From IMG/VR virus record IMGVR_UViG_3300008114_000011: a stretch of DNA of 64,000 bases. One strand, 5' to 3'. The notes beneath the pieces are model-generated. The model worked only from the letters and a program-made list of their open reading frames with translations. It was not told the origin of the DNA and made no database searches. The position numbers and the translations under genes were made by a program. Source of the stretch: a virus (Duplodnaviria > Heunggongvirae > Uroviricota > Caudoviricetes). Positions 992-61,158 of this stretch are shown in pieces (within the stretch, counting starts at the first letter, position 1; each line of letters opens with the position of its first letter).

Positions 992-1272
992 TGGAAAAAA
1001 TATTCTGTATAAAAACTTTTATATTATCAGGAACAGAAAACATTCTTGTAGAAGAAGGTAAATGGTATGTTGGTGAAGAGTTTATGAATAAAGTATATAG
1101 AATATTTGGTGAAGGTAAATCAACACCATCTGAATTAGTTATACCAGAACCAACAGGATTTAAAGTTGATGGTGTTGATATTTATGATAATTATATCGGT
1201 ATGTTTATGAAAGAACTATTCATAAACCATACCATGTTTAGAGATGAAAAACTTAATAAGATATTAGAATGA
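991..1272 (+). CDS. small protein with degenerate ELGI-type tail
   Basis: 93 aa; TAATG stop/start overlap; C-term FRDEKLNKILE. Confidence 0.6.
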   Translation: MEKIFCIKTFILSGTENILVEEGKWYVGEEFMNKVYRIFGEGKSTPSELVIPEPTGFKVDGVDIYDNYIGMFMKELFINHTMFRDEKLNKILE

Positions 1273-1499
1273 AAGTTATTTGTATAGATGATTATGACTT
1301 AGCTGGACGTAAAGTAAAACTAACACCAGGTAAAATATATAATGTTGATTCAAATAAAAACGGTTATTTATTTGATAAAGATAAAGGAGCATGGGTCGTA
1401 ACAAATGATGCTGGTATACAAAGATGGTATTACAAGGATGTTTTAATGCCACTAGAAAAATGGAGAGAAATTAGAATAAAAGAATTGGGAATATCCTAG
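1269..1499 (+). CDS. ELGI-tail family small protein (MKVICI subfamily)
   Basis: 76 aa; N-term MKVICIDDYD; C-term EKWREIRIKELGIS; ATGA overlap. Confidence 0.7.
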   Translation: MKVICIDDYDLAGRKVKLTPGKIYNVDSNKNGYLFDKDKGAWVVTNDAGIQRWYYKDVLMPLEKWREIRIKELGIS

Positions 1500-4697: not shown

Positions 4698-4922
4698 ATG
4701 AAAGCTATTTGTATAAACGAATACGTCGGTGATACTTATATGGAACTAACTTTAGGTAAGATCTATAATGTCGTTAAAAAAGCTAAAGAAATAAAATTCC
4801 CGGATGATAAAATGAGATTCTTTATTATTAACGATGCTGGATATGGATCATACTATACGAGAAGAGTTATAATTCCATTAGATGAATGGAGAGAGAAACA
4901 ATTAAATGAATTAGGAATATGA
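4698..4922 (+). CDS. ELGI-tail family small protein (MKVICI subfamily)
   Basis: MKAICINEYV...DEWREKQLNELGI. Confidence 0.7.
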   Translation: MKAICINEYVGDTYMELTLGKIYNVVKKAKEIKFPDDKMRFFIINDAGYGSYYTRRVIIPLDEWREKQLNELGI

Positions 4923-5140
4923 AAGCAATCTGCATAAGAAAATCCCACCCTGGATACTGCAAATGGGACCTCACCCCAGGAAAGGCCTACGACGTGCTGG
5001 AACAGGGGAAAGACAACAACACCGAAGAGCCGATCTACCTAATACAGGACGACGAGGGAAACACATACTGGTACAGCAAGATCACGGTGATGCCGATAGA
5101 TGAATGGAGAGAGAAAAGGCTAAAAGAGATAGGAATATGA
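4919..5140 (+). CDS. ELGI-tail family small protein, GC-rich allele
   Basis: MKAICIRKSH...DEWREKRLKEIGI; hand count of first 120 nt gives about 51% G+C vs about 30% in neighbours. Confidence 0.7.
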   Translation: MKAICIRKSHPGYCKWDLTPGKAYDVLEQGKDNNTEEPIYLIQDDEGNTYWYSKITVMPIDEWREKRLKEIGI

Positions 5141-5189: not shown

Positions 5190-5432
5190 ATGAAAGTTAT
5201 TTGTATAAACAACCATATGGATCAGATTCCACTTACTATGGGAAAAGTCTATGATATCAAACAAAGATTTTATAGATATGATTTTTCAAATATGAAATCT
5301 TTGTTTGATATAGAAGGAAAAGAACATTTTTCTATAAAGAACAACAAAGGTAAGGAATCTTGGTATACTAGAGAAGAAGTAGTTCCACTAGAAGAGTGGA
5401 GAGAAATTAAACTTAATGATTTATTAAAGTAG
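5190..5432 (+). CDS. ELGI-tail family small protein (MKVICI subfamily)
   Basis: MKVICINNHMD...EEWREIKLNDLLK. Confidence 0.7.
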   Translation: MKVICINNHMDQIPLTMGKVYDIKQRFYRYDFSNMKSLFDIEGKEHFSIKNNKGKESWYTREEVVPLEEWREIKLNDLLK

Positions 5433-8344: not shown

Positions 8345-8569
8345 ATGAAAGAAGGTGATATTGTTTTTTGTATTGATTCATCTGATCATGGTAAGAAACA
8401 GAAATTAACTTATGGTAAAGGATATACAATTAAAAGAATTGATAATTATAAATTAAATTCAAGTATATCCATTAAAAATGATAGTGGTGTAATTGGTATT
8501 TATAATTTTAATAGATTTATAACTCTCAAAGAATGGAGAGATAAGAAACTAAAAGAACTTGGGTTATGA
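8345..8569 (+). CDS. ELGI-tail family small protein
   Basis: 74 aa; C-term KEWRDKKLKELGL. Confidence 0.65.
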   Translation: MKEGDIVFCIDSSDHGKKQKLTYGKGYTIKRIDNYKLNSSISIKNDSGVIGIYNFNRFITLKEWRDKKLKELGL

Positions 8570-26014: not shown

Positions 26015-26084
26015 AGGTGGGTAGCTCAACTGGAAAGAGCCTCTCATTAAGAGAGAGATTAAGGTTCGAATCCTGTCCCTTCTG
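26015..26084 (+). tRNA. tRNA-like element (type I size, loop ATTAAGA, possible UAA anticodon) with weak T stem
   Basis: D arm GCTC-AACTGGAAA-GAGC. Anticodon arm CTCTC-ATTAAGA-GAGAG. GGTTCGAATCC T-loop with only 3 T-stem pairs. Acceptor AGGTGGG/CCCTTCT has 1 mismatch. The helix extends 7 more bp (26008..26014 with 26084..26090). Confidence 0.45.
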
Positions 26085-29969: not shown

Positions 29970-30770
29970 ATGAAAAAGACAAATTATTACGAAATTTGTA
30001 ATCAAAAATTGAAGTATTTAAACTATTCAGATAGGACTATCAAGTCCTATCTTTATTATATTAATCAATTTTTAGAAAATACTAAAATACCACCAACCAG
30101 ATTAACAGCAACAGATTTCCAACAATATCTCAATAATTACAATTTTACCTCCACCTCACAACAAAATCAAGTCATAAACTCAATAAGATTCCTATACAAA
30201 GAATCACTTAATAAAAAATATGATAAGGTTGATTTTAAAAGACCTAGATCTGAAAAGAAACTACCAAAAGTAATTGATGGCGATTATATCAAATCTAAAC
30301 TTTCTAAAATAGAAAACCTTAAGCATAAAACTATACTTACTTTAACCTATTCAGTTGGTTTAAGAGTTTCCGAAATAATAAATCTTAAAATAGAAGATAT
30401 TGACTCCAAAAGAATGATTATTCATATTAAAAATGCTAAAGGTAAAAAAGATAGAATTGTACCACTTTCAGAAAACGTACAAAATCTAATAAAAATATAT
30501 TCAGAAAAATATACACCAAAAGAATATCTTTTTAATGGTCAATCCACAAACAAATATTCAATACAATCCTGTCAAAATATCTATAAAAAATATATTGATG
30601 AAAATTCATCTATACATACCCTCAGACACTCAGCCTTTACCAACCTCTTAGAAAATGGAACAGATCTAAGAATAATACAGAAAATAGCAGGTCACTCATC
30701 CACCAAAACAACAGAGATATATACACACGTTTCTAATCAACTTTTAAATAAAGTTAATCTACCAATTTAA
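29970..30770 (+). CDS. tyrosine recombinase, IntI/XerC/XerD-like (short, 266 aa)
   Basis: N-terminal SAM-like pattern LKYLNYSDRTIKSYLYYINQF; GLRVSEIINLK; AKGKKDRIVPLS; HTLRHSAFTNLLENGTDLRIIQKIAGHSSTKTTEIYTHV (R..HxxR..Y catalytic pattern). Confidence 0.85.
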   Translation: MKKTNYYEICNQKLKYLNYSDRTIKSYLYYINQFLENTKIPPTRLTATDFQQYLNNYNFTSTSQQNQVINSIRFLYKESLNKKYDKVDFKRPRSEKKLPKVIDGDYIKSKLSKIENLKHKTILTLTYSVGLRVSEIINLKIEDIDSKRMIIHIKNAKGKKDRIVPLSENVQNLIKIYSEKYTPKEYLFNGQSTNKYSIQSCQNIYKKYIDENSSIHTLRHSAFTNLLENGTDLRIIQKIAGHSSTKTTEIYTHVSNQLLNKVNLPI

Positions 30771-46404: not shown

Positions 46405-47193
46405 ATGGGAAAACATTATTTATATAAACATATAAGAAATGATAGTAATATCATTTTCTATATTGGTATAGGGACAAAAAATAAATCTGATATAACTTAT
46501 AATAAGTATAGTAGGGCTTTTAATAAAAAAAGGAGAAATAAACATTGGTTAAATACAGTTTCTTTATTGAATGATGATTATTCAATTGAGATAGTATGTG
46601 AGACCGATGATTATGAATATGTGAAAAGTCTAGAAAAAAATCTGATTTTATTTTATGGTAGAAAGGATCTAGGTTTAGGTAATTTAGTAAATATGACAGA
46701 TGGTGGTGATGGTCAAATAAAAAGAGTTTGGAGTGAAGAGTCTAGGAAGAAGGCATCTAAATCACACATTGGTAAAGTAATTGATGGTGAGTGGAAGAAA
46801 AATTTAATAAAAGCTAGATTTGGAAATAAATCACATTCTGGTCGAACTTTTTCAGATGAACATAGAAAAAAAATATCAGAAGCAGGTAAGGGAAAAATAC
46901 CTTGGAATAAGAATAGAGAATTATCCAATGATGAGATTGAAAAAATAAAAAAGGGTATAGAAGAAAATAAAAAAATTTGTTATATTTGTAATGTTGAGTG
47001 TGACTCTGCTAATTATAATAGATGGCATGGTGATAAATGTGAGATGGGATCTATTTTAGATAGGGTTGATGAGATAAAGGATTTATTGTATAATAAAGTT
47101 CCTTTACTTAGGATTAGTAGAGTTTTAGGAATAAAGTATAAATTATTGAGAAGATTAAAAGAGTCAGTTTTATTTAAAGAAGAATTATTATGA
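46405..47193 (+). CDS. GIY-YIG homing endonuclease with NUMOD3-like repeats
   Basis: HYLYKHIRNDSNIIFYIGIGT (GIY...YIG); repeats SEESRKKASKSHIGK and SDEHRKKISEAGKGK. Confidence 0.75.
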   Translation: MGKHYLYKHIRNDSNIIFYIGIGTKNKSDITYNKYSRAFNKKRRNKHWLNTVSLLNDDYSIEIVCETDDYEYVKSLEKNLILFYGRKDLGLGNLVNMTDGGDGQIKRVWSEESRKKASKSHIGKVIDGEWKKNLIKARFGNKSHSGRTFSDEHRKKISEAGKGKIPWNKNRELSNDEIEKIKKGIEENKKICYICNVECDSANYNRWHGDKCEMGSILDRVDEIKDLLYNKVPLLRISRVLGIKYKLLRRLKESVLFKEELL

Positions 47194-47963
47194 AATATTT
47201 AAAAAAGAAATATCCGGATGGTAGCTTTTATGTTGAAGTAGAGGATTTTAGTGAACCTATAATAACCGAAAGAATAAATTCATATGAGGACCTTTTTTTC
47301 ATAAAATCCATCAAAGAGGTTTGTGATTTTAATGGAATTAAAGATGTTGAGTTATTTATACCATGTATGTTTCAACAGCAACATGACCGTAGATTTTTTG
47401 ATAATCAATCATTTGAACTAAAGATAGTTTGTGACTTTATCAACTCATGTAATTTTAGTAAAGTTTATGTTTTCCATCCACATTCTGATTCCACTCAAAT
47501 GGGATTGAATAATATTAGAGTTGTTGATAATTCTAAATTTATATCAAGTGTTTTAAGTAGAATTGATTCTAATCCAATATTATTTTCAACAGATGCTGGT
47601 TCATTTAAATGGATAAATAAATTAGTTGATAAAATAGGATTTAATGGTGATGTTTATTGTGCTAGTAAGTCTAGAGATTTAAAAACACATGATTTGAAGC
47701 AAGTTATTGATTGTTCTGATTTTGGTGGTAGAGATATATTAGTATTGGATGATTTATGTGTAAAGGGTGGTACATTTATAGGTCTATTGAATATGTTAAA
47801 GGAGAGAAATGTTGGTAAGATATACTTAGCAGTTAGTCATATGACTATTCAAGATCCAAATACAAGTCTTGAGTGTTATGATAAGATATTTACTACTAAT
47901 AGTAAGTATGACTATTATGTTCTAAATAATTTAGAATTGATTGATTATAAAAGTATTATATAA
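47190..47963 (+). CDS. prs: ribose-phosphate pyrophosphokinase (PRPP synthetase)-like protein
   Basis: LFIPCMFQQQHDRRF resembles the Prs xPYxxYxRQDR block; PRPP-binding loop DILVLDDLCVKGGTF. Confidence 0.6.
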   Translation: MKYLKKKYPDGSFYVEVEDFSEPIITERINSYEDLFFIKSIKEVCDFNGIKDVELFIPCMFQQQHDRRFFDNQSFELKIVCDFINSCNFSKVYVFHPHSDSTQMGLNNIRVVDNSKFISSVLSRIDSNPILFSTDAGSFKWINKLVDKIGFNGDVYCASKSRDLKTHDLKQVIDCSDFGGRDILVLDDLCVKGGTFIGLLNMLKERNVGKIYLAVSHMTIQDPNTSLECYDKIFTTNSKYDYYVLNNLELIDYKSII

Positions 47964-48826: not shown

Positions 48827-48871
48827 AGGTAATAGGTTCTTATATATATAAGTATAAAAGAAGTGATACTT

Positions 48872-49846
48872 ATGTTAGAAGAATTTATAAAAAAATCGAT
48901 AGTTAAATTTGGTAATAAATTTGATTATAGTAAGTTTAATTATGTGAATGCTAAAACTAAATCTATAATCATATGCCCAGTACATAAAGATTTTTTTCAA
49001 ACACCTGATAAGCATTTACGTTCAAAATATGGATGTAAATTATGTTGGGAAATTGAAAAAAAGAAAATAAAAAGAGATTATGTAAAGGGTCCAAATATCA
49101 TTTCAAAAGATGAGTTCTTGGGTAGATGTTATGAGAAGTTTGGTGATAAATTCAAATACGATTTATCAAACTACAATGGGTTTGTTGGTGATTATATAAA
49201 AATAACTTGTTCAGAACATGGTGATTTTTATACAAAACCGAATATACATTTATTAAGTAATAACACCTATGGGTGTAAATTATGTGCTAATGATAATAGA
49301 GTACTCAATAAAACACAAACCTATGATGATGTTATAGAAAAATTATCAAATATTTATAATGATAAATATATTTATCCTGAATATAATAGAGATACTTATA
49401 TTAACAAGAGGTCGAAAATAGATATAATTTGTCCGGATCATGGGCTATTTGTTAAGAGTGTTCAAAAACACCAAAGCGGTCAATATTGTTTTGAGTGTAA
49501 AATTAAGAATATGGTTTTTAATAATATTTTAGTTGGTGGTTACACTGAGAAATTATTTGAAGATAAACCAGAATTAAAGGATAAAAAATCTAAATTATAT
49601 TATTTGAGAATAAATAATGGTGATTATTATAAAATAGGAATAACAACAGTTTCGGTTGAAAGTAGAATAAAGTCATTGAAGAGTAAATCTAAAGGTTTTA
49701 TAAAAGATGTTGAGATTTTATTTGAAAAGGAAATGTCTTTATATGAATCATATATCATGGAGAGTAAAATATTAAATGATAATATAGATAGTAGAGTTTA
49801 TAAAAAATGGAGTACTGAAATTTTCAACAAAAATGTTTTGGAATAA
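48872..49846 (+). CDS. homing-endonuclease-like protein (repeated Cys modules plus T5orf172/GIY-YIG-like C-terminal domain)
   Basis: Three repeats of FG.KF.Y....Y......I.C..HG.F......HL....GC..C; C-term LYYLRINNGDYYKIGITTVSVESRIKSLKS. Confidence 0.55.
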   Translation: MLEEFIKKSIVKFGNKFDYSKFNYVNAKTKSIIICPVHKDFFQTPDKHLRSKYGCKLCWEIEKKKIKRDYVKGPNIISKDEFLGRCYEKFGDKFKYDLSNYNGFVGDYIKITCSEHGDFYTKPNIHLLSNNTYGCKLCANDNRVLNKTQTYDDVIEKLSNIYNDKYIYPEYNRDTYINKRSKIDIICPDHGLFVKSVQKHQSGQYCFECKIKNMVFNNILVGGYTEKLFEDKPELKDKKSKLYYLRINNGDYYKIGITTVSVESRIKSLKSKSKGFIKDVEILFEKEMSLYESYIMESKILNDNIDSRVYKKWSTEIFNKNVLE

Positions 49847-49881: not shown

Positions 49882-51462
49882 ATGAACTTTTTAGAAATTT
49901 ATTATACCGATGTGTATAAAACAGGACACAAACCAATGCTACCAGTGGGTAGTGTTTTGATGCAATCAAATTTTACACCAAGGAGTGGTAAATATAGCAA
50001 TTGTCCAAATAATGGTAAAATTGTTTCGTTTGGTCAACAAATGATGGTGAGAAAAATGAAACAAGATTGGGATGTTAACTTTTTTCAAAGACCAATTGAA
50101 GAAATCGATCAATTTGGGAAGGATTTAACAGATATGTTAATGCTGAGTGATCCTTTTGATGTTACTCACTTCAAAGAACTACATAAATTGGGATATCTTC
50201 CGATTGAGTTTAGAGCAATCACTGAAGGTGAGAGAATTCCGTATAAAATACCATTATCGACTATCGTTAATACTAAACCTTTAAATGGTCAAGTTTTTGA
50301 CTGGATAGTTAATTACTTAGAAACTATTAATTCTGCTGAATCTTGGCAAGCACCAACTTCAGCGACGCTATCATTCGCATTAAGAGAGTTATCAACAAAG
50401 TGGATCACAAAAACAGATCCGGAGAGTTTGTGGTTTGTTGACTATCAAAATCATGATTTCTCAATGAGAGGTATGGGTGGTAAATCAGCTATTGTTAATA
50501 GTGGTTTAGGATTTGCTACTTGTTCGAGAGGTTCAGATACACTACCTGTTATACCAGCTGCTAGAATGTATTATGATGAAAAAGATGTTTGTATCAACTC
50601 TGTTATCGCATCTGAACATGCTATTATGTGTTCATTGACTGGATTTTTCATTAAGACTAAAGATGGTTCTTGGGATAAGGTTGGTAACTTTGAAGTTGAG
50701 ACATTTAGGTATTTATTAAGAACTTTTCCAACTGGAATATTGTCATTAGTATCTGATACTTGGGATTTATGGAGAGTTATTACGGAGTACTGTCAAATAT
50801 TAAAAGATGAAATTTTAGCAAGAGATGGCAAACTTGTTATCCGTCCTGACTCTGGTGATCCAGTAGATATTATTTGTGGTAGCATAACTCCAGATATGTC
50901 TTCTTATAATGAAAGATACAAACAACCTCAATATAAAGGTGTTATCGAGTTATTATGGGATATCTTTGGTGGTACTGAAACATCAACCGGATATAAAAAA
51001 TTAGACTCACACATTGGTGCTATCTATGGTGACTCTATTAACTATAAGAGAGCTGAGAGTATTTATGAAAGATTATCAGCTAAAGGATTTGCAACAACAA
51101 ACATCGTTCTCGGTGTGGGATCCTATTCACTTCAGATGGTAACACGCGATACACATGGTATGGCTCAAAAAGCAACCTACATCGAAATTGAAGTTGATGG
51201 TGATGTTGAAGGTATCAACATCTTTAAAGACCCTATCACTGATGATGGTACTAAAAAATCAGCAACTGGATTACTAAAAGTAGTTAAAGTTGATGGTGAG
51301 TTTACATTAATTGATAAATGTACTTGGGATGATGTTAACTCGGAAGATAATGAGCTGAAAGTTATCTTCAAAGATGGTAAGTTCTATAACGAAACGACTT
51401 TGACCATCATACGTGGGAAGTTAGAGGATCTTGTTTCTAAAGAACAACCTGAATTAGTTTAA
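49882..51462 (+). CDS. nadV: nicotinamide phosphoribosyltransferase (NAMPT/NadV)
   Basis: 526 aa; N-term YYTDVYKTGHKPM; length and blocks SDTWDLW, IRPDSGDP, GAIYGDSI fit NAMPT. Confidence 0.8.
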   Translation: MNFLEIYYTDVYKTGHKPMLPVGSVLMQSNFTPRSGKYSNCPNNGKIVSFGQQMMVRKMKQDWDVNFFQRPIEEIDQFGKDLTDMLMLSDPFDVTHFKELHKLGYLPIEFRAITEGERIPYKIPLSTIVNTKPLNGQVFDWIVNYLETINSAESWQAPTSATLSFALRELSTKWITKTDPESLWFVDYQNHDFSMRGMGGKSAIVNSGLGFATCSRGSDTLPVIPAARMYYDEKDVCINSVIASEHAIMCSLTGFFIKTKDGSWDKVGNFEVETFRYLLRTFPTGILSLVSDTWDLWRVITEYCQILKDEILARDGKLVIRPDSGDPVDIICGSITPDMSSYNERYKQPQYKGVIELLWDIFGGTETSTGYKKLDSHIGAIYGDSINYKRAESIYERLSAKGFATTNIVLGVGSYSLQMVTRDTHGMAQKATYIEIEVDGDVEGINIFKDPITDDGTKKSATGLLKVVKVDGEFTLIDKCTWDDVNSEDNELKVIFKDGKFYNETTLTIIRGKLEDLVSKEQPELV

Positions 51463-53753: not shown

Positions 53754-54587
53754 ATGGAAAAGGGATATATTTATAAAATAATTTCACCAACTAACAGGAT
53801 TTATATTGGTAAAACTTTTAATTTGGAAAAGAGAGTAAGATCTTATAAAGGTTTATGGTGTAAAAAACAAAGAGTTTTGTATAAATCATTAGTTAAATAT
53901 GGTTGGGATAAACATAGTTTTGAGATACTATTTGAAGATTTTTGTAGTGAGGAATATTTATCTGAGTTGGAGACAAAGTATATAATTGAATATAATAGTT
54001 TTCGAAGATACAACTATAAATTTGGAATGAATTTAACTCTTGGTGGTGAAGGATCTTGTGGATTAAAACATACGGATAAAACTAAAAAAATGATATCCGA
54101 AACTAAGAAAAAGGCTAAAAGAACGGAGAAAGAGATTTTAGCAAGTGAAAAAAGAAGAGGGACTAAGGTTTATAAAAGTGAAGAGTGGATTAAAAATAAC
54201 GCAGAGAGTATAAAAAAACCAATATTGCAATATGATTTGGATGGTAATTTTATCAAAGAATGGAAAAGTGCTAAAGATATTGAATTGGAATTGGGATTTT
54301 CTAGGAAAAACATTTCCTGTAATGTTAGATATAAAAGTAATAGTGCATTTAACTTTATATGGATTTTTAAAAATGCCGATCTTAAAATAGATGATATTCT
54401 AATAAGGAGAAAAAGAGAAAGAAAAAAACCAACTAATAGTATTAAGGTTTTAGATATTGAATGTAATATTGTCTATGATAGTATAATGGATGTAGTTAAA
54501 AATACTAACATGACATATGCTAAAGTTTATCGAGTTATATACAGTAATGATGAGAATAAAAAGTATATTATATATGAAGAGAAATAA
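53754..54587 (+). CDS. GIY-YIG homing endonuclease
   Basis: GYIYKIISPTNRIYIGKTFNLEKRVRSY; NUMOD-like HTDKTKKMISETKKKA. Confidence 0.8.
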   Translation: MEKGYIYKIISPTNRIYIGKTFNLEKRVRSYKGLWCKKQRVLYKSLVKYGWDKHSFEILFEDFCSEEYLSELETKYIIEYNSFRRYNYKFGMNLTLGGEGSCGLKHTDKTKKMISETKKKAKRTEKEILASEKRRGTKVYKSEEWIKNNAESIKKPILQYDLDGNFIKEWKSAKDIELELGFSRKNISCNVRYKSNSAFNFIWIFKNADLKIDDILIRRKRERKKPTNSIKVLDIECNIVYDSIMDVVKNTNMTYAKVYRVIYSNDENKKYIIYEEK

Positions 54588-55576: not shown

Positions 55577-56014
55577 ATGAGGAGTTGGATTTTGTTTTTG
55601 ATTTTTTTACCATTTGTTACTTTCTCTCAATGGAATTTACATGAGGAAGTAACAAGTGGTTTAGATGCTTATAGAGTTGCTGATATTAAATCAGGTAATA
55701 GTGAATTGTTATTACAAGAGTATTATGAAGATGTTATGTTTTGTTTACATGACTCTACTTTTATTTCTGATACACAGACCGTAGTTTTAGAAATAACATA
55801 TGGTTTAGAAACAAAAACTTTTATCCTAAAAGACTTAATTGTTAATGACTATACTATTATACTATCTCCTGATGTAAAAAAAGAAGAATATTTTAATTAT
55901 TTGGAATTATCAAGGTCTATTAAAATTTCTTTAGTAGGAACTTCACCAACAAAGTGTTATCAGTTTAGTACAATAGGTACTATTAATGCTTATAACTACA
56001 TTATAGATTTATAA
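55577..56014 (+). CDS. secreted hypothetical protein
   Basis: Signal-like N-term MRSWILFLIFLPFVTFSQ. Confidence 0.55.
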   Translation: MRSWILFLIFLPFVTFSQWNLHEEVTSGLDAYRVADIKSGNSELLLQEYYEDVMFCLHDSTFISDTQTVVLEITYGLETKTFILKDLIVNDYTIILSPDVKKEEYFNYLELSRSIKISLVGTSPTKCYQFSTIGTINAYNYIIDL

Positions 56015-56024
56015 ATTAAGAAAC

Positions 56025-57749
56025 ATGAAAAGAATATTATTTTTACTAACACTATTATTATCATTTAGTTCATTAGCAACTAATTATTATATTAGTTCAA
56101 CCGGAAACAATACAAACAATGGAACATCATCTATTACACCAAAATTAACATTAGCAAACGTTTTCAGCACCTATAATTTAGGTTCTAATGATACTATTTT
56201 CGTTGAAGCAGGAACTTATTCTGAGACAGGTATTACTGTTGGTACTGATGATGAAGGTTTTGTAATTTCTGGTGCGGCTTTATCATCTGGTGTACCTACA
56301 TCTATTTTTGATGCAGGTAGTACCGCAAGATGGTTATTGTTAAATAACACAAATAATGATAATATCACAATCACTAAATTAATTATAAAGGATCATAAAA
56401 ATTCTGATGGAGGTGATCCAGGAGGTGGTGGAGCAATTAAAATAATTGCTGGATGTACAGGATTTAAAGCAACTTATTGTCAGTTTGATAATTGTGATAC
56501 AAGAACTGCCTCTTTACATCACCGAGGTGGTGTTATTTATTCTGCTGAGGGAATAACCATCGATTATTGTACTTTCAAAAATTGTAATGCTGAATATTAT
56601 GGTGGTGCTATTTCAATAGAATTATCACCAACATCATCATCATCAATAAAACATTCAATTTTTTATTCAAATACCGCTACTAATTACGGAGGTGCTATAT
56701 TCTTTGGTGTTGGATCTACCTCTACTCTAACATTAGAAAACTGTTTATTTTATGAAAATAATACATCATCAGGAGAGGCTGTTATTGTTGCTATGAATAC
56801 ATATAGTACATTAAATATTATGAACTGTACTATAACTGCTAATGGTAATGCTTCTGTTGGAACTGGAGGTGTTTTGGCTTTATCATCAGCTAAAATAAAT
56901 TTAATAAATACAATTATTTATAATAATTTAGGTAATACTTTCAATGATGTTTATAATAATGCCGCTACCGTTAACATGACAAATTGTTGTTATGGAAATT
57001 CAGCTGAGATAAAATCAGCTACATCAAATACATCACCGTTAATATCAAATCCACTATTCACAAATAGTGCTAGTGATGATTATACACTTTCTGGTACATC
57101 ACCTTGTATAGATTGGGGAACAACAACCGGAGCACCAACTGATGATTTGAGACATTATAGTCGTATTGGTAATCCAGATGTTGGATGTTATGAATCAAAT
57201 GGTATTGCTTTACCAATTGAGTTGATTTACTTTAAAGTTAAATTTGAAGATGGTGTTGTTAAATTAAGATGGTCAACAGCATCAGAACACAATAATGATT
57301 ATTTCACAATTGAAAAGTCAAAAGATGGTTTAGATTATGATATAGTTACAACTCTACCAGGTGCTGGTAATTCAACTCAAAGAATAAACTATCAAGCAAT
57401 TGATCGAAATATTGAAACTGGAATAACTTACTATCGATTAAAACAAACTGATTATAATGGTGATTATAAAAGAACAGATTGGGAGTCTATATTAATTCAA
57501 TTAAATATTGAGAACTTAACGGTTTATCCAAATCCAATTACAAATGAAATAAATGTTTCTTTACATTCATCTTTTAGTAAGGTTGAAGACTTATTGATAT
57601 ATGATTTAACCGGTAAACAATTTTATAAAAAATCATTAGATTTACAATTAGGTGATAATTATTTTGATGTAGAGTTACCACAACTTTCTAAAGGTCTTTA
57701 CATACTACAAATAGGTGATAAGAAACTTAAACTTGAATATAATGATTAA
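56025..57749 (+). CDS. secreted beta-helix-like protein with T9SS C-terminal sorting domain
   Basis: Signal peptide MKRILFLLTLLLSFSSLA. Repetitive G/N/T-rich segments (GGAI.I, YGGAIS, YGGAIFF). C-term LTVYPNPITNEINVSL...DLTGKQFYKKSL...LSKGLYILQIGDKKLKLEY is typical of the Por/T9SS CTD. Confidence 0.75.
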   Translation: MKRILFLLTLLLSFSSLATNYYISSTGNNTNNGTSSITPKLTLANVFSTYNLGSNDTIFVEAGTYSETGITVGTDDEGFVISGAALSSGVPTSIFDAGSTARWLLLNNTNNDNITITKLIIKDHKNSDGGDPGGGGAIKIIAGCTGFKATYCQFDNCDTRTASLHHRGGVIYSAEGITIDYCTFKNCNAEYYGGAISIELSPTSSSSIKHSIFYSNTATNYGGAIFFGVGSTSTLTLENCLFYENNTSSGEAVIVAMNTYSTLNIMNCTITANGNASVGTGGVLALSSAKINLINTIIYNNLGNTFNDVYNNAATVNMTNCCYGNSAEIKSATSNTSPLISNPLFTNSASDDYTLSGTSPCIDWGTTTGAPTDDLRHYSRIGNPDVGCYESNGIALPIELIYFKVKFEDGVVKLRWSTASEHNNDYFTIEKSKDGLDYDIVTTLPGAGNSTQRINYQAIDRNIETGITYYRLKQTDYNGDYKRTDWESILIQLNIENLTVYPNPITNEINVSLHSSFSKVEDLLIYDLTGKQFYKKSLDLQLGDNYFDVELPQLSKGLYILQIGDKKLKLEYND

Positions 57750-58499: not shown

Positions 58500-59033
58500 A
58501 TGAGAAAACCCTTTAAGAGAGTAGAACCAAAAAGAAAACACAAAATTAATTTAGAAATAACATCAAGTGATGTTAGATTGATTGGTAATGGAGAACCAAT
58601 CGTTATTTCTAGAAATGAAGCTATTAGAATGGCTGAAGCAGAGGAAAAAGATTTGATTATGATTAATGAAAATCAAACTCCACCTATTGTTAGAATTGAG
58701 GACTACAACAAATTTCTTTATAATCAAGAAAAGATTGAGAAAGAGAAAAAGAAAAATGCTGTTAAATCCTCTTTAAAAGAAATACAATTATCGGTTAATA
58801 TATCAGATCATGATTTAGAAACTAAATCTAAAAAAGGTAGAGAGTTTTTAAGTGACGGTGATAAAGTAAAAGTTGTTATCTCTTTAAAAGGTAGAGAGAA
58901 AGCATCTCCAGAAAGAGGTGAGTTAGTTATGTTAAAATTTGCTCAATCCGTTGAAGAGTTTGGTACACCAGAGGCACTTCCTAAATTAGAATCCGGAAAG
59001 TGGTTAATGATTTTGAAATGTAAAAAGAAATAA
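58500..59033 (+). CDS. infC: translation initiation factor IF-3
   Basis: INLEITSSDVRLIGNGEPIVISRNEAIRMAEAEEKDLIMINENQTPPIVRIEDYNKFLY...KEIQLSVNISDHDLETKSKKGREFLSDGDKVKVVISLKGRE follows the two-domain IF-3 pattern. Confidence 0.85.
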   Translation: MRKPFKRVEPKRKHKINLEITSSDVRLIGNGEPIVISRNEAIRMAEAEEKDLIMINENQTPPIVRIEDYNKFLYNQEKIEKEKKKNAVKSSLKEIQLSVNISDHDLETKSKKGREFLSDGDKVKVVISLKGREKASPERGELVMLKFAQSVEEFGTPEALPKLESGKWLMILKCKKK

Positions 59034-59136: not shown

Positions 59137-61158
59137 TTAAACCCATTTATCATTTTTTCTTTTAAGAAGTTTATCTCCTTCTAATTTATAAAACTTATAT
59201 TTTTTATCAATAGAAGTTATAACATAATATTTATCTGGTCCTAATTCCTTATATCTTTTCATATTACCAGTTACCTTAACACCATCCACTTCACCACCCA
59301 TTTGTTTGGCATAAGCCCATTTAATATAGTGTGGATCAACGTGTCTCGATCTTAATTTATCTTGTTCAATTGATGTTTCTAATGTAGATAATAAGTGAAT
59401 AAAAACTATTTCATATCCATTCTCTCTTGCTAAATCAAATATATCCTTAATGTGTTCATAACCAGTATCAGTATATTCTTTACCAGCACCGGTTGTATCA
59501 TAGATAAAGTTTTGACCAGTTTTCATAAAACCTTTCATCTTCATTAAGTTTAATTCAGACGCATTTTTTGTTCTACCACCTTCTTCTTTTTCTTTTCCTT
59601 TATAATAAACATTTGGATCTTTTGTGTAAAGAAGTGAAATATCATCAGTTGAGAAGTCTTTAATGTTTGTATTTTTTGTATGTAAATAATTATTCACAAA
59701 GTGTGAATTATGTAGTATTGTTGGTAAGTTACCACCTATGAAGTTATGATGTTTATCTAAGACTATATCATAAACATAATCATTATGTTCTATTGTTGAT
59801 ATATTAGTTATTTTATCAAAAAATAAGTTATTGTGATGATTAATATATGTTTCTGGTATATAAACATTATTCTCATTTAAAAAATTACATATTTTATTAA
59901 AACGTTTTTTCGTTATTACTCTTCTATATTTATAACTTCTAGTAAATCTATATCCAGTTTCATCTTCTGGTATAAATTCGGTAATAAAAAATAAAAAAAC
60001 AAATTTAAATAATAAGGATTTTTTATCATATATAGTCAGGGTAACAAGTGATGATTTTAATTTATTTGGAGAAATATTAAATAAATATATTAGATGTAGT
60101 AGAAAAAAAATTAAACCAATTGAAAAAACTAATACAAATATTGGTGGATTTATACCAAATGATGACATGGTGGAATTAATTTATAATAATAAATTAAACA
60201 TTAAAAGTGCATAAGATAAATCAGTAGCCATTTCATATGACGATGTGTAATATTCAACTCTATTTTCAAATACAGAACCATCACAAGATAAATAACTACC
60301 TAAGAAATGTTTTAATGATTCACTGTTTGATATTATATCATCCGGAATTCTAACTTTATGTGATTTGTTGCCAAAAATATAATCACCACATATTTCAGAA
60401 ATATTTGAAATAAAATCATATTTATCTTTTTTAAATCTTCGATTTCCTAATTTAATATCATCTGAATATTGAACACTATGTCTTATTTTTTTAGATTTTA
60501 CTGTTAATATTTTATTTTCTTTTTCGACACATTTTCTAAAATCATCTATTATATCAATATCTATATTTGTTAGTGTTAGAAATTTACTATTTTTATTTTT
60601 TATAAAATTACCATCACTTAACGAATAACCAATAATCCTTGATAATTCATTACTTATTTTTGATTTATTATTAAAAGTGTTATTTATTATTCTAGGTCTG
60701 GCTAACTTATCATCTATTGTTATTTCTGATGATTTTTTCCAAATAATATCACCGTTTTTTTCTAAAACTAATAATGGGTGTATAGGTGTAACTTTTATAT
60801 CAACACCCGTTTGTGTTTTTATATTTATTAACTTTTCTGAATAGCCTCTATATAAACTCGAAATCTCATTTTCCACAAACTCACCACTATCATTTAATGA
60901 TTTAACATATAAGTTTTTAACAGGAATATTTATTTCACCAATTTTTGATTCGGTGTTATAGTTATCTATCAATTTACCAATTTTAGTCATTTTATTATTC
61001 ACTAAAATGGGTGTATTATATTCTAAGCACTTTCCAATACCGGGAGCACCGATTAGGAAAACAGCTAATCCTTTTTCTTTATCTAATATTTCTGGAATTG
61101 GTTCATTCTTTGACCATTCTTCTTTTATGTAATTGAAAAATTCTTTTATATATCTCAT
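59137..61158 (-). pseudogene. intein-containing P-loop kinase, reading frame broken by one in-frame TAA (60181..60183)
   Basis: ORFs 60181..61158 and 59137..60168 are in the same frame. N-extein ends GAPGIGK. C-extein starts SHFVNNYL...IYDTTGAGKE (zeta/AAA_33-like kinase pattern). Confidence 0.6.
59707..61029 (-). mobile_element. class 1 intein with LAGLIDADG homing-endonuclease domain
   Basis: Block A CLEYNTPILV directly after the P-loop Lys. Block B VTPIHPLLV. LAGLIDADG motifs IIGYSLSDGNF and FLGSYLSCDGSV. Blocks F/G YVYDIVLDKHHNFIGGNLPTILHN|S. Confidence 0.8.

What the first reader, a model, noticed from the sequence alone, without database searches (positions are those of the whole stretch)
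56025..57749. Phage gene for a signal-peptide-bearing beta-helix-like protein with a T9SS C-terminal sorting domain
Seen in sequence:
- The N-terminus is MKRILFLLTLLLSFSSLA.
- A long G/N/T/S-rich repetitive body follows, with recurring YGGAI segments suggestive of a right-handed beta-helix.
- Then comes a segment typical of Flavobacteriia surface proteins: LRWSTASEHNNDYFTIEKSKDG...YYRLKQTDYNGDY.
- The protein ends in a canonical Por/T9SS CTD: LTVYPNPITNEINVSL...GLYILQIGDKKLKLEY.

Inference: the phage appears to use the host type IX secretion system to export a protein, possibly a polysaccharide depolymerase or surface-modifying enzyme, rather than building it into the virion. This also pins the host to T9SS-bearing Bacteroidota.
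Basis: partly seen in the sequence, partly recalled or inferred. Interest (0 to 1): 0.6.

Follow-up and report, generated by a model that had tools for sequence, protein, structure and literature searches.

The report
Phage-borne T9SS-sorted secreted beta-helix protein

Summary
ORF 56025..57749 (+, 574 aa) encodes four parts:
- a Sec/SPase I signal peptide
- an FN3/Ig-like module that Pfam and NCBIfam do not recognise
- a type A T9SS C-terminal domain that passes the curated cut-offs (PF18962 38.4/27 bits; TIGR04183 31.9/23 bits).

The window looks like the accessory region of a large phage: NAMPT, PRPP synthetase, IF3, clamp loader, endonuclease VII, many homing endonucleases and an intein. 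The gene is syntenic in related metagenomic phage contigs. dN/dS is about 0.25 in every domain, including the signal peptide and the CTD.

Homologs at 55-64% identity lie in ordinary Bacteroidota chromosomes, some next to PorP/SprF and other T9SS cargo, and in at least two unrelated phage-like contigs. The family therefore moves between hosts and phages.

The 3' half of the beta-helix is a recombining cassette. The C-terminus switches between a full CTD and a conserved ~40-aa "mini-tail".

Export through the host T9SS is strongly inferred but not shown. No enzymatic activity can be assigned. Phage-encoded T9SS cargo was already reported (Bellas 2020; de Jonge 2019), so this is a new member of a known kind.

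The parts
56025..57749 (+). Complete gene, 574 aa plus TAA stop: signal peptide, beta-helix, Ig-like module, T9SS type A CTD
   Evidence: ORF list; Pfam and NCBIfam hits; AF2 model pLDDT 90.6; orthologs at 82% and 71% identity in syntenic phage contigs
56025..56078 (+). Sec/SPase I signal peptide, aa 1-18 (MKR / ILFLLTLLLSF / SLA|T)
   Evidence: Sequence and hydrophobicity profile; predicted N-terminal helix 2-15; conserved in homologs, including P0009 once its start is corrected; dN/dS 0.17
56079..57209 (+). Right-handed parallel beta-helix passenger, aa 19-395, pectate-lyase-like fold with GGAI-type turns
56625..57164 (+). Recombining (mosaic) cassette inside the beta-helix, aa ~201-380
   Evidence: Sliding identity: P0001 vs P0003 are ~100% identical at aa 1-200 and 385-574 but 38-80% at aa 201-380; the window vs P0001 is 95-98% at aa 221-380 and 58-85% elsewhere
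57072..57197 (+). Choice-of-anchor Q domain, aa 350-391, the C-terminal cap of the beta-helix
   Evidence: NF041518 28.8 bits, cut-off 25
57210..57497 (+). FN3/Ig-like beta-sandwich module, aa 396-491 (LPIEL...W.T..E.NN..F.IE.S.DG...YYRLKQ.D.NG), a spacer between passenger and CTD
   Evidence: AF2 strands 399-491; tandem FN3-like Foldseek matches; no Pfam or NCBIfam family; found before CTDs in >=594 Bacteroidota genome loci and in 104 IMG/VR contigs
57507..57740 (+). T9SS type A C-terminal sorting domain, aa 495-572 (HMM match 500-567); contains YPNP, GLY and KLKL
   Evidence: PF18962 38.4/27 bits; TIGR04183 31.9/23 bits; family profile matches the PDB CTD chains 8glk_D (E 4e-4) and 8glj_D; beta-sandwich at pLDDT ~90; dN/dS 0.25

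Best explanation
The gene encodes an exported cargo protein that a large, probably jumbo, phage of Bacteroidota shares with its hosts.

Proposed route:
1. The N-terminal signal peptide sends the protein through Sec and is cut after SLA18.
2. The beta-helix, the Ig-like module and the CTD fold in the periplasm.
3. The type A CTD is recognised by the host T9SS (PorV/SprA-type translocon), and the protein crosses the outer membrane.
4. The CTD is removed by the PorU-type sortase, and the protein is either released or tethered to the cell surface. The Ig-like module acts as a spacer.
5. Outside the cell, the beta-helix binds or cleaves a surface or extracellular glycan of the infected cell.

The aim would be to change the infected cell's surface, either to mask or destroy a receptor (superinfection exclusion, keeping progeny from sticking to doomed cells) or to give access to a polymer.

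Shown here: the domain architecture, HMM membership of the CTD, the fold, the phage context, purifying selection on every domain, host orthologs in chromosomal T9SS contexts, and a recombining cassette in the helix.

Inferred only: actual Sec/T9SS transport, CTD cleavage, the glycan ligand and the benefit to the phage.
For: Architecture:
- Signal peptide, conserved in homologs.
- CTD above the curated cut-offs of two libraries, and similar to solved T9SS CTD chains.
- AF2 model at pLDDT 90.6 with a beta-helix and two sandwiches.
- Passenger / Ig-like module / CTD order, with the CTD ending 7 aa before the stop.

Phage context:
- Window gene content.
- NAMPT's best cultured match is the jumbo Tenacibaculum phage PTm1.
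- The 347-kb scaffold carrying homolog P0009 has a virion structural protein (phrog_23837, E 9e-37) 5 kb away.

Retention by the phage:
- 21-28 window ORFs are collinear with contigs L011 and L007.
- dN/dS is 0.17-0.26 in the signal peptide, helix, module and CTD.
- Gene GC is 29.7% against 28.5% for the window.

Host origin and T9SS link:
- P0010, P0011, P0025, P0031 and P0007 lie in bacterial contexts, next to PorP/SprF, OmpA, CHU_C or other T9SS cargo.

Precedent:
- Phage T9SS cargo is reported in PMC7468147 and PMC6949934.
- BFVD holds an uncultured Caudovirales protein named 'Secretion system C-terminal sorting domain'.

A specificity-type region:
- Mosaic cassette at aa ~201-380.
Against: - No experiment and no SignalP run; secretion is inferred from sequence.
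- The window contains no capsid, terminase or tail gene, so its phage nature rests on accessory and replication genes and on related contigs.
- No catalytic motif of any PL or GH family was found. Conserved residues in the wide alignment are mostly Gly, Asn and Tyr, which are structural.
- Sister homologs replace the CTD with a 40-aa mini-tail not known to be a T9SS signal, so T9SS dependence is not universal in the family.
- Timing of expression is unknown, and promoter/terminator scans were uninformative.
Confidence: 0.72

Rival explanations
1. Virion tailspike or depolymerase. The beta-helix would be a tail enzyme, and the two C-terminal beta-sandwiches would be Ig-like decoration or receptor-binding domains that merely resemble a T9SS CTD.
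Against: - The cleavable-type signal peptide is conserved, with dN/dS 0.17.
- There is no N-terminal particle-binding domain; the helix starts at aa 20.
- No PHROG hit.
- The gene lies among NAMPT, IF3 and nucleotidyltransferase genes, not in a structural module.
- Orthologs at 55-64% identity are chromosomal bacterial genes in T9SS neighbourhoods.
Confidence: 0.06
2. Secreted non-enzymatic surface coat or adhesin. It would be exported as in the best explanation, but the beta-helix only binds. It could coat the infected cell or occupy the T9SS and attachment sites, blocking further phage adsorption or altering adhesion and gliding.
For: - GGAI/FxxN-like turns recall Pmp-type adhesin beta-helices; PF02415 is precomputed on distant homologs.
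- No conserved catalytic residues were found.
- Other viral-contig cargo proteins carry binding-type passengers: MAM, GEVED, FN3.
- P0007 and P0011 sit beside giant adhesin-like cargo genes.
Against: - The Pmp repeat model is below its cut-off (9.7 vs 15 bits).
- The helix is rather conserved (55-64% identity between phage and bacterial copies, dN/dS ~0.2), more than is usual for fast-evolving adhesins.
Confidence: 0.3
3. Neutral hitch-hiker. The gene would be a recently captured host gene with no role in the phage life cycle, or the window would be a bacterial genomic island or other mobile element and not a phage.
For: - Close homologs exist in bacterial chromosomes, some next to integrases.
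- The window has an integrase-family gene at 29970-30770 and no virion genes.
- Lineage-specific proteins are absent from IMG/VR, and there is no megablast match to deposited phages.
Against: - Collinear conservation across divergent relatives, with dS 0.46-0.77 and dN/dS ~0.25 in all domains.
- Gene GC matches the window.
- The window is dominated by phage-type genes (PHROG NAMPT 1.7e-156, IF3 1.5e-41, clamp loader, endonuclease VII, many homing endonucleases) and small ORFan genes. No cellular housekeeping family was matched among the ORFs scanned.
- The family recurs in at least two other unrelated phage-like contigs.
Confidence: 0.07

Closest known systems
Phage-encoded T9SS cargo genes of 'Cryophage' (Bellas et al. 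2020, PMC7468147) and T9SS sorting-domain ORFs on crAss-like contigs (de Jonge et al. 2019, PMC6949934)
   Same: Uncultured phages of Bacteroidota encode proteins with a type A T9SS sorting domain. They are interpreted as hijacking the host T9SS. In Cryophage the genes vary between phage variants; here a mosaic cassette is seen. Both cases are computational only.
   Different: The passenger here is a choice-of-anchor Q beta-helix, not an endoglucanase, GH39, PA14 or BACON protein. This phage lineage is different (low-GC, NAMPT/IF3-bearing, probably jumbo). Here host chromosomal orthologs, purifying selection and CTD/mini-tail switching are documented.
Cellular T9SS type A cargo proteins of Bacteroidota (TIGR04183 / PF18962). 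From my own knowledge, P. gingivalis RgpB has the same order of catalytic domain, Ig-like domain and CTD. The CTD chains in PDB 8glk and 8glj are solved examples.
   Same: Sec signal peptide, passenger, Ig-like spacer and a C-terminal ~75-aa beta-sandwich with YPNP, GxY and K..K motifs. HMM scores are above the cut-offs, and the family profile matches 8glk_D and 8glj_D.
   Different: The gene is encoded by a phage. Secretion, CTD cleavage and surface attachment are untested.
Rhombotarget A (PDB 9cdu) and the 'choice-of-anchor Q' beta-helix class (NF041518)
   Different: Only 18% identity. From my own knowledge, Rhombotarget A uses a rhombosortase/GlyGly-CTERM signal in Proteobacteria. No function for it is given in the sources seen here, so the match gives no activity.
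Beta-helix polysaccharide lyases and hydrolases, and phage tailspike depolymerases (for example 5mqp BT_1002, 5olq RG lyase, PL6 alginate lyases, Klebsiella phage depolymerases)
   Different: - 10-18% identity, and no family-specific catalytic motif identified.
- No sequence-level match: the PDB profile search gives only E 0.27 to 5olq, over the N-terminal cap.
- Not seen to be trimeric, and no virion adaptor domain.

Membership tests
T9SS type A cargo (Por_Secre_tail, PF18962 / TIGR04183) | CTD HMM score above the curated cut-off | tested here: met
   PF18962 38.4 bits vs 27; TIGR04183 31.9 bits vs 23
T9SS type A cargo (Por_Secre_tail, PF18962 / TIGR04183) | Domain at the extreme C-terminus, with the conserved motifs (PxP as in YPNP, GxY, terminal K..K) | tested here: met
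   HMM match at aa 500-567 of 574. VYPNP at 499-503; GLY and KLKL both lie between aa 555 and 572. The motif definitions are from my own knowledge of the CTD literature.
T9SS type A cargo (Por_Secre_tail, PF18962 / TIGR04183) | N-terminal Sec signal peptide | tested here: met
   MKR + ILFLLTLLLSF + SLA|T by sequence and hydrophobicity; conserved in homologs. SignalP itself was not run.
T9SS type A cargo (Por_Secre_tail, PF18962 / TIGR04183) | Ig-like beta-sandwich fold of the CTD | tested here: met
   AF2 strands at 495-572 with pLDDT ~88-94; Foldseek match to the PorU C-terminal region and to tandem FN3 domains
T9SS type A cargo (Por_Secre_tail, PF18962 / TIGR04183) | T9SS-dependent export and CTD removal in a host that has a T9SS | not testable with these tools
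   Needs the host or a surrogate, comparing wild type with T9SS mutants. Indirect support only: all cellular homologs are in Bacteroidota.
Choice-of-anchor Q domain proteins (NF041518) | HMM score above the curated cut-off | tested here: met
   28.8 bits vs 25, aa 350-391
Right-handed parallel beta-helix (pectate-lyase-like) carbohydrate-active enzymes | Beta-helix fold | tested here: met
Right-handed parallel beta-helix (pectate-lyase-like) carbohydrate-active enzymes | Catalytic residues or a sequence signature of a defined PL or GH family | tested here: inconclusive
   No Pfam or NCBIfam enzyme family hit. The PDB profile search gives only E 0.27 to an RG lyase cap. Conserved columns are mainly Gly/Asn/Cys/Tyr.
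Chlamydial-type polymorphic membrane protein (Pmp) repeat adhesins (TIGR01376 / PF02415) | Repeat HMM above its cut-off (GGAI / FxxN repeats) | tested here: not met
   TIGR01376 9.7 bits vs 15. Only 3 GGAI and 2 FxxN motifs.
Phage tailspike / virion depolymerase | N-terminal virion-attachment domain, membership of a structural PHROG, location in a tail module | tested here: not met
   A signal peptide is followed directly by the helix. No PHROG hit below E 0.1. Neighbours are NAMPT, a homing endonuclease, a nucleotidyltransferase and IF3.
Phage-encoded T9SS cargo (as described for Cryophage, PMC7468147) | Gene resides on a phage genome | tested here: met
   Phage-type gene content of the window and collinear relatives. 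A virion structural protein lies near the homolog on a 347-kb scaffold. Caveat: there is no hallmark capsid or terminase gene inside the window itself.

The most novel reading that the evidence does not exclude
Two readings that the evidence does not exclude.

1. Phages of Bacteroidota may routinely load the host T9SS with their own cargo, to re-surface the infected cell for superinfection exclusion or receptor destruction.

2. The Ig-like module plus the conserved ~40-aa 'mini-tail' (N.lGQEV....Y.G[LIV].I..Y.DG...K) may be a short C-terminal sorting signal that has not been described.
- It replaces the type A CTD repeatedly in this family.
- It ends 71 of 83 module-bearing ORFs in the IMG/VR loci examined; 62 of the 67 complete ones carry a signal peptide by the hydrophobicity heuristic.
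- It is used by both phages and their hosts.
Probability: 0.15. Interest if true: 0.7.

Novelty: new member of a known kind. Interest (0 to 1): 0.4.

Why it matters
If the inference holds, this phage makes its host secrete or display a phage-chosen protein through a secretion system found only in the Bacteroidota group. That gives a handle on how large aquatic phages remodel the surface of infected cells, and it provides a phylum-level host marker for uncultured phages.

The gene is shared with host chromosomes at about 60% identity. It has a recombining cassette and an interchangeable C-terminal signal, which makes it a tractable case of host-phage exchange of surface proteins.

The significance is limited. 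The concept has been published twice from metagenomes, nothing has been tested experimentally, and the protein's activity is unknown.

Tried and rejected
- Megablast of 39 kb of the window against 50,697 phage records: no match.
- tblastn of the target against the same records: only four huge uncultured phages, and only the C-terminal modules.
- PHROGs on the target: nothing below E 0.1.
- IMG/VR scan with the lineage-specific 571-aa neighbour: no relative. IMG/VR also holds no full-length beta-helix homolog.
- Pmp-repeat adhesin membership: rejected, below the cut-off.
- Sigma-70 promoter and terminator scan around the gene: promoter count equals the shuffled expectation, and the terminator-like hits lie inside ORFs, so it was uninformative. 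Bacteroidota-type promoters are not covered by that tool.
- Functional link to the two upstream 145-aa ORFs: they are not paralogs, and they are absent next to the homologs in L001, L009 and L178. No link is supported.
- 'The mini-tail is phage-specific': rejected. P0011 and P0025, both with mini-tails, are chromosomal.
- 'One acquisition followed by vertical descent': rejected. L001 and L178 share essentially only this gene with the window, and phage and bacterial copies interleave in the NJ tree (a rough tree without support values).

Full report
**1. Observation**

The ORF is at exactly the stated coordinates: 56025..57749, + strand, ATG to TAA, 574 aa. It is the longest open stretch in the window. 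At this base composition (A 38%, T 34%) the chance of 574 stop-free codons is about 5e-24.

Every quoted sequence is present.
- The N-terminus has a basic n-region (MKR), an 11-residue hydrophobic core (mean Kyte-Doolittle up to 2.85) and SLA|T, with no lipobox cysteine. This is the pattern of a Sec/SPase I signal peptide.
- The body is 39% T/S/N/G, with five GG[AGV][ILV] turns.

**2. Domains**

- Pfam places PF18962 (Por_Secre_tail) at aa 500-567 with 38.4 bits against a cut-off of 27.
- NCBIfam gives TIGR04183 at 31.9 bits against 23, and NF041518 (choice-of-anchor Q) at aa 350-391 with 28.8 bits against 25. The Pmp repeat model is below its cut-off.
- No PHROG matches.
- An AF2 model built on a 60-sequence alignment has mean pLDDT 90.6. 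It shows a signal helix at 2-15, a right-handed beta-helix at ~20-355 with a loop-rich cap to ~395, a beta-sandwich at 399-491 and a second beta-sandwich at 495-572.
- No function for Rhombotarget A is given in the paper titles and abstracts returned for it; the crystal structure with a bound peptide matches a macrocycle-design study.
- A profile of the family matches the CTD chains of PDB 8glk (E 4e-4) and 8glj.
- The middle module (aa 396-491) has no Pfam or NCBIfam family. It looks FN3/Ig-like by Foldseek.
- The order passenger, Ig-like domain, CTD is the usual build of T9SS cargo (my own knowledge, for example RgpB).

**3. Is it a phage?**

The window has no capsid, terminase or tail gene. 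It does hold these phage-type genes:
- NAMPT (phrog_448, E 1.7e-156), PRPP synthetase and NUDIX hydrolases;
- dNMP kinase, endonuclease VII and a clamp loader;
- an IF3 (phrog_9787, E 1.5e-41) and one tRNA-Leu;
- many HNH, GIY-YIG and LAGLIDADG endonucleases and an intein;
- dozens of small ORFan genes.

None of the ORFs scanned matched a cellular housekeeping family. NAMPT's best cultured match is the 225-kb Tenacibaculum phage PTm1. No deposited phage is close at the DNA level.

Contigs L011 and L007 share 21-28 collinear ORFs with the window. Their gene order is NAMPT, a 534-aa gene on the minus strand, 133-, 145- and 145-aa ORFs, the target, a 247-aa nucleotidyltransferase-like gene and IF3.

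A homolog (P0009) lies on a 347-kb scaffold, 5 kb from a protein that matches 'virion structural protein' (E 9e-37).

I take the phage origin as well supported but not proven from the window alone.

**4. Family and evolution**

The large protein collection holds about 30 clusters of full-length homologs at 50-82% identity.

Contexts sampled:

| Type | Members |
|---|---|
| Phage-like | window, P0001, P0003, P0009, P0016, P0021; NAMPT/NAPRTase-family genes are nearby |
| Clearly bacterial (Bacteroidota) | P0010 (gyrB, guaA, lolA), P0011 (PorP/SprF, OmpA, giant CHU_C cargo), P0025 (gcvP, lptC), P0031 (PorP/SprF, ilv genes), P0007 (an integrase and three other T9SS cargo genes) |

- L001 and L178 share essentially only this gene with the window. 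Phage and bacterial copies interleave in a rough NJ tree. The gene has therefore moved repeatedly between hosts and several phage lineages.
- Within the window's own lineage it is under purifying selection in all parts. dN/dS is 0.17 for the signal peptide, 0.25 for the helix, 0.25 for the module and 0.25 for the CTD, against P0001 at dS 0.46. Its GC matches the phage.
- P0009 seemed to lack a signal peptide, but an upstream ATG restores MKTFFTILLFMSHLVCHS.
- The gene is mosaic. P0001 and P0003 are about 100% identical at aa 1-200 and 385-574 but 38-80% identical at aa 201-380. The window is 95-98% identical to P0001 only at aa 221-380. This fits the variability of T9SS cargo genes reported for Cryophage.

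**5. C-terminal signal variants**

In the beta-helix tree the C-terminus switches several times between a full CTD and a ~40-aa mini-tail.

The same mini-tail ends most module-bearing ORFs in the IMG/VR loci. Its consensus is ...N.lGQEVd....Y.G[LIV].I..Y.DGs..K... It is found in 71 of 83 such ORFs, and 62 of the 67 complete ones pass a signal-peptide heuristic.

- Pfam and NCBIfam do not recognise it.
- In P0016 it is predicted as three short strands at pLDDT ~64-72.
- It is not phage-specific, because P0011 and P0025 are chromosomal.
- Whether it is a sorting signal is unknown.

In species-representative genomes, the module followed by a full CTD is very common in Bacteroidota: at least 594 loci, including Crocinitomicaceae, Flavobacteriales, Cyclobacteriaceae, Chitinophagaceae and Saprospiraceae.

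**6. Mechanism**

The best-supported account is Sec export, then T9SS transport directed by the type A CTD, then CTD removal and either release or surface attachment, with the Ig-like module as spacer and the beta-helix acting on or binding a surface or extracellular glycan.

- The export route is inferred from architecture, selection and host orthologs. I give it about 0.7.
- The activity is open. I lean slightly towards a glycan-active or glycan-binding role because of the fold and the cassette-like variable region, with a non-enzymatic coat or adhesin as a serious alternative (~0.3).
- A virion tailspike (~0.06) and a neutral passenger or non-phage origin (~0.07) are disfavoured.

**7. Comparison and novelty**

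Phage-encoded T9SS cargo was reported for Cryophage, with endoglucanase, GH39 and PA14 passengers (PMC7468147). It was also noted on crAss-like contigs (PMC6949934). BFVD/UniProt already holds uncultured-phage proteins with this tail, one of them named 'Secretion system C-terminal sorting domain'. Huge phages such as LR756504 encode a signal peptide + module + CTD-like ORF.

This case is therefore a new member of a known kind. What it adds is a new passenger class, clear host orthology, selection data, mosaicism and the CTD/mini-tail alternation.

Interest is moderate (0.4): a sound and testable example, but not a surprise to specialists.

Noticed in passing
IMG/VR loci L013-L092; homologs P0011, P0016, P0021, P0025, P0029 (aligned to window aa ~495-574): A conserved ~40-aa C-terminal 'mini-tail' (N.lGQEVd....Y.G[LIV].I..Y.DGs..K) follows the Ig-like module in place of a full type A CTD. 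It ends 71 of 83 module-bearing viral ORFs, nearly all with signal peptides, and also occurs in bacterial copies. Pfam and NCBIfam do not recognise it. It is predicted as three short beta-strands. It may be a minimal sorting signal.
   Followed up: partly
window 56625-57164 (aa ~201-380 of the target): A recombination cassette lies inside the beta-helix. P0001 and P0003 are ~100% identical outside it and 38-80% identical inside it. The window is 95-98% identical to P0001 inside it and 58-85% outside it.
   Followed up: yes
window 58500-59033 (+): A full-length translation initiation factor IF3 homolog (IF3_N + IF3_C; phrog_9787, E 1.5e-41). It is 91% identical in the related contigs L011 and L007.
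   Followed up: partly
window 59137-61158 (-): A P-loop ATPase / polynucleotide-kinase-like gene, 232 aa and uninterrupted in L011 and L007, is split here at its Walker A motif (GAPGIGK|C...ILHN|S). The insertion is a ~1.3-kb in-frame intein with a LAGLIDADG domain. The endonuclease part contains an in-frame TAA followed by a garbled stretch, so the intein is probably decaying.
   Followed up: partly
window 53754-54587 (+): A GIY-YIG + NUMOD1 homing endonuclease is inserted here relative to the collinear contigs L011 and L007. The window as a whole is very rich in HNH, GIY-YIG and LAGLIDADG endonucleases (for example 46405-47193 and 48863-49846).
   Followed up: partly
window 47190-47963, 49882-51462, plus NUDIX ORFs: An NAD+ salvage set: PRPP synthetase (phrog_619), NAMPT (phrog_448) and NUDIX hydrolases. 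A NAMPT/NAPRTase-family gene lies within a few kb of the beta-helix gene in all six phage-like contexts, even in contigs that share nothing else with the window.
   Followed up: partly
window 55577-56014 (+): A 145-aa ORF directly upstream of the target also starts with a signal peptide (MRSWILFLIFLPFVTFSQ). It has no family match. It is conserved (69% identity) in L011 and L007 but absent next to more distant homologs.
   Followed up: partly
window 29970-30770 (+): A tyrosine recombinase / integrase-family gene (phrog_1, E 2.4e-40) lies in an otherwise lytic-looking large-phage region. Its role (integration, dimer resolution or a mobile element) is unknown.
   Followed up: no
window 1269-1499, 4698-4922, 4919-5140, 5190-5432, 8345-8569 (+): Five paralogous ~75-aa ORFs (31-37% identity to one 70-aa ORF of L011 and L007) form a small multicopy gene family of unknown function.
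   Followed up: no
window 26015-26084 (+): A single tRNA-Leu (anticodon TAA), matching the AT-rich codon usage.
   Followed up: no
L175 3539-4528 (LR756504.1, a 636-kb uncultured phage): A 329-aa ORF with a signal peptide, a Cys-rich passenger, the same Ig-like module and a divergent CTD-like end that lacks YPNP. Pfam and NCBIfam do not recognise any of it.
   Followed up: partly
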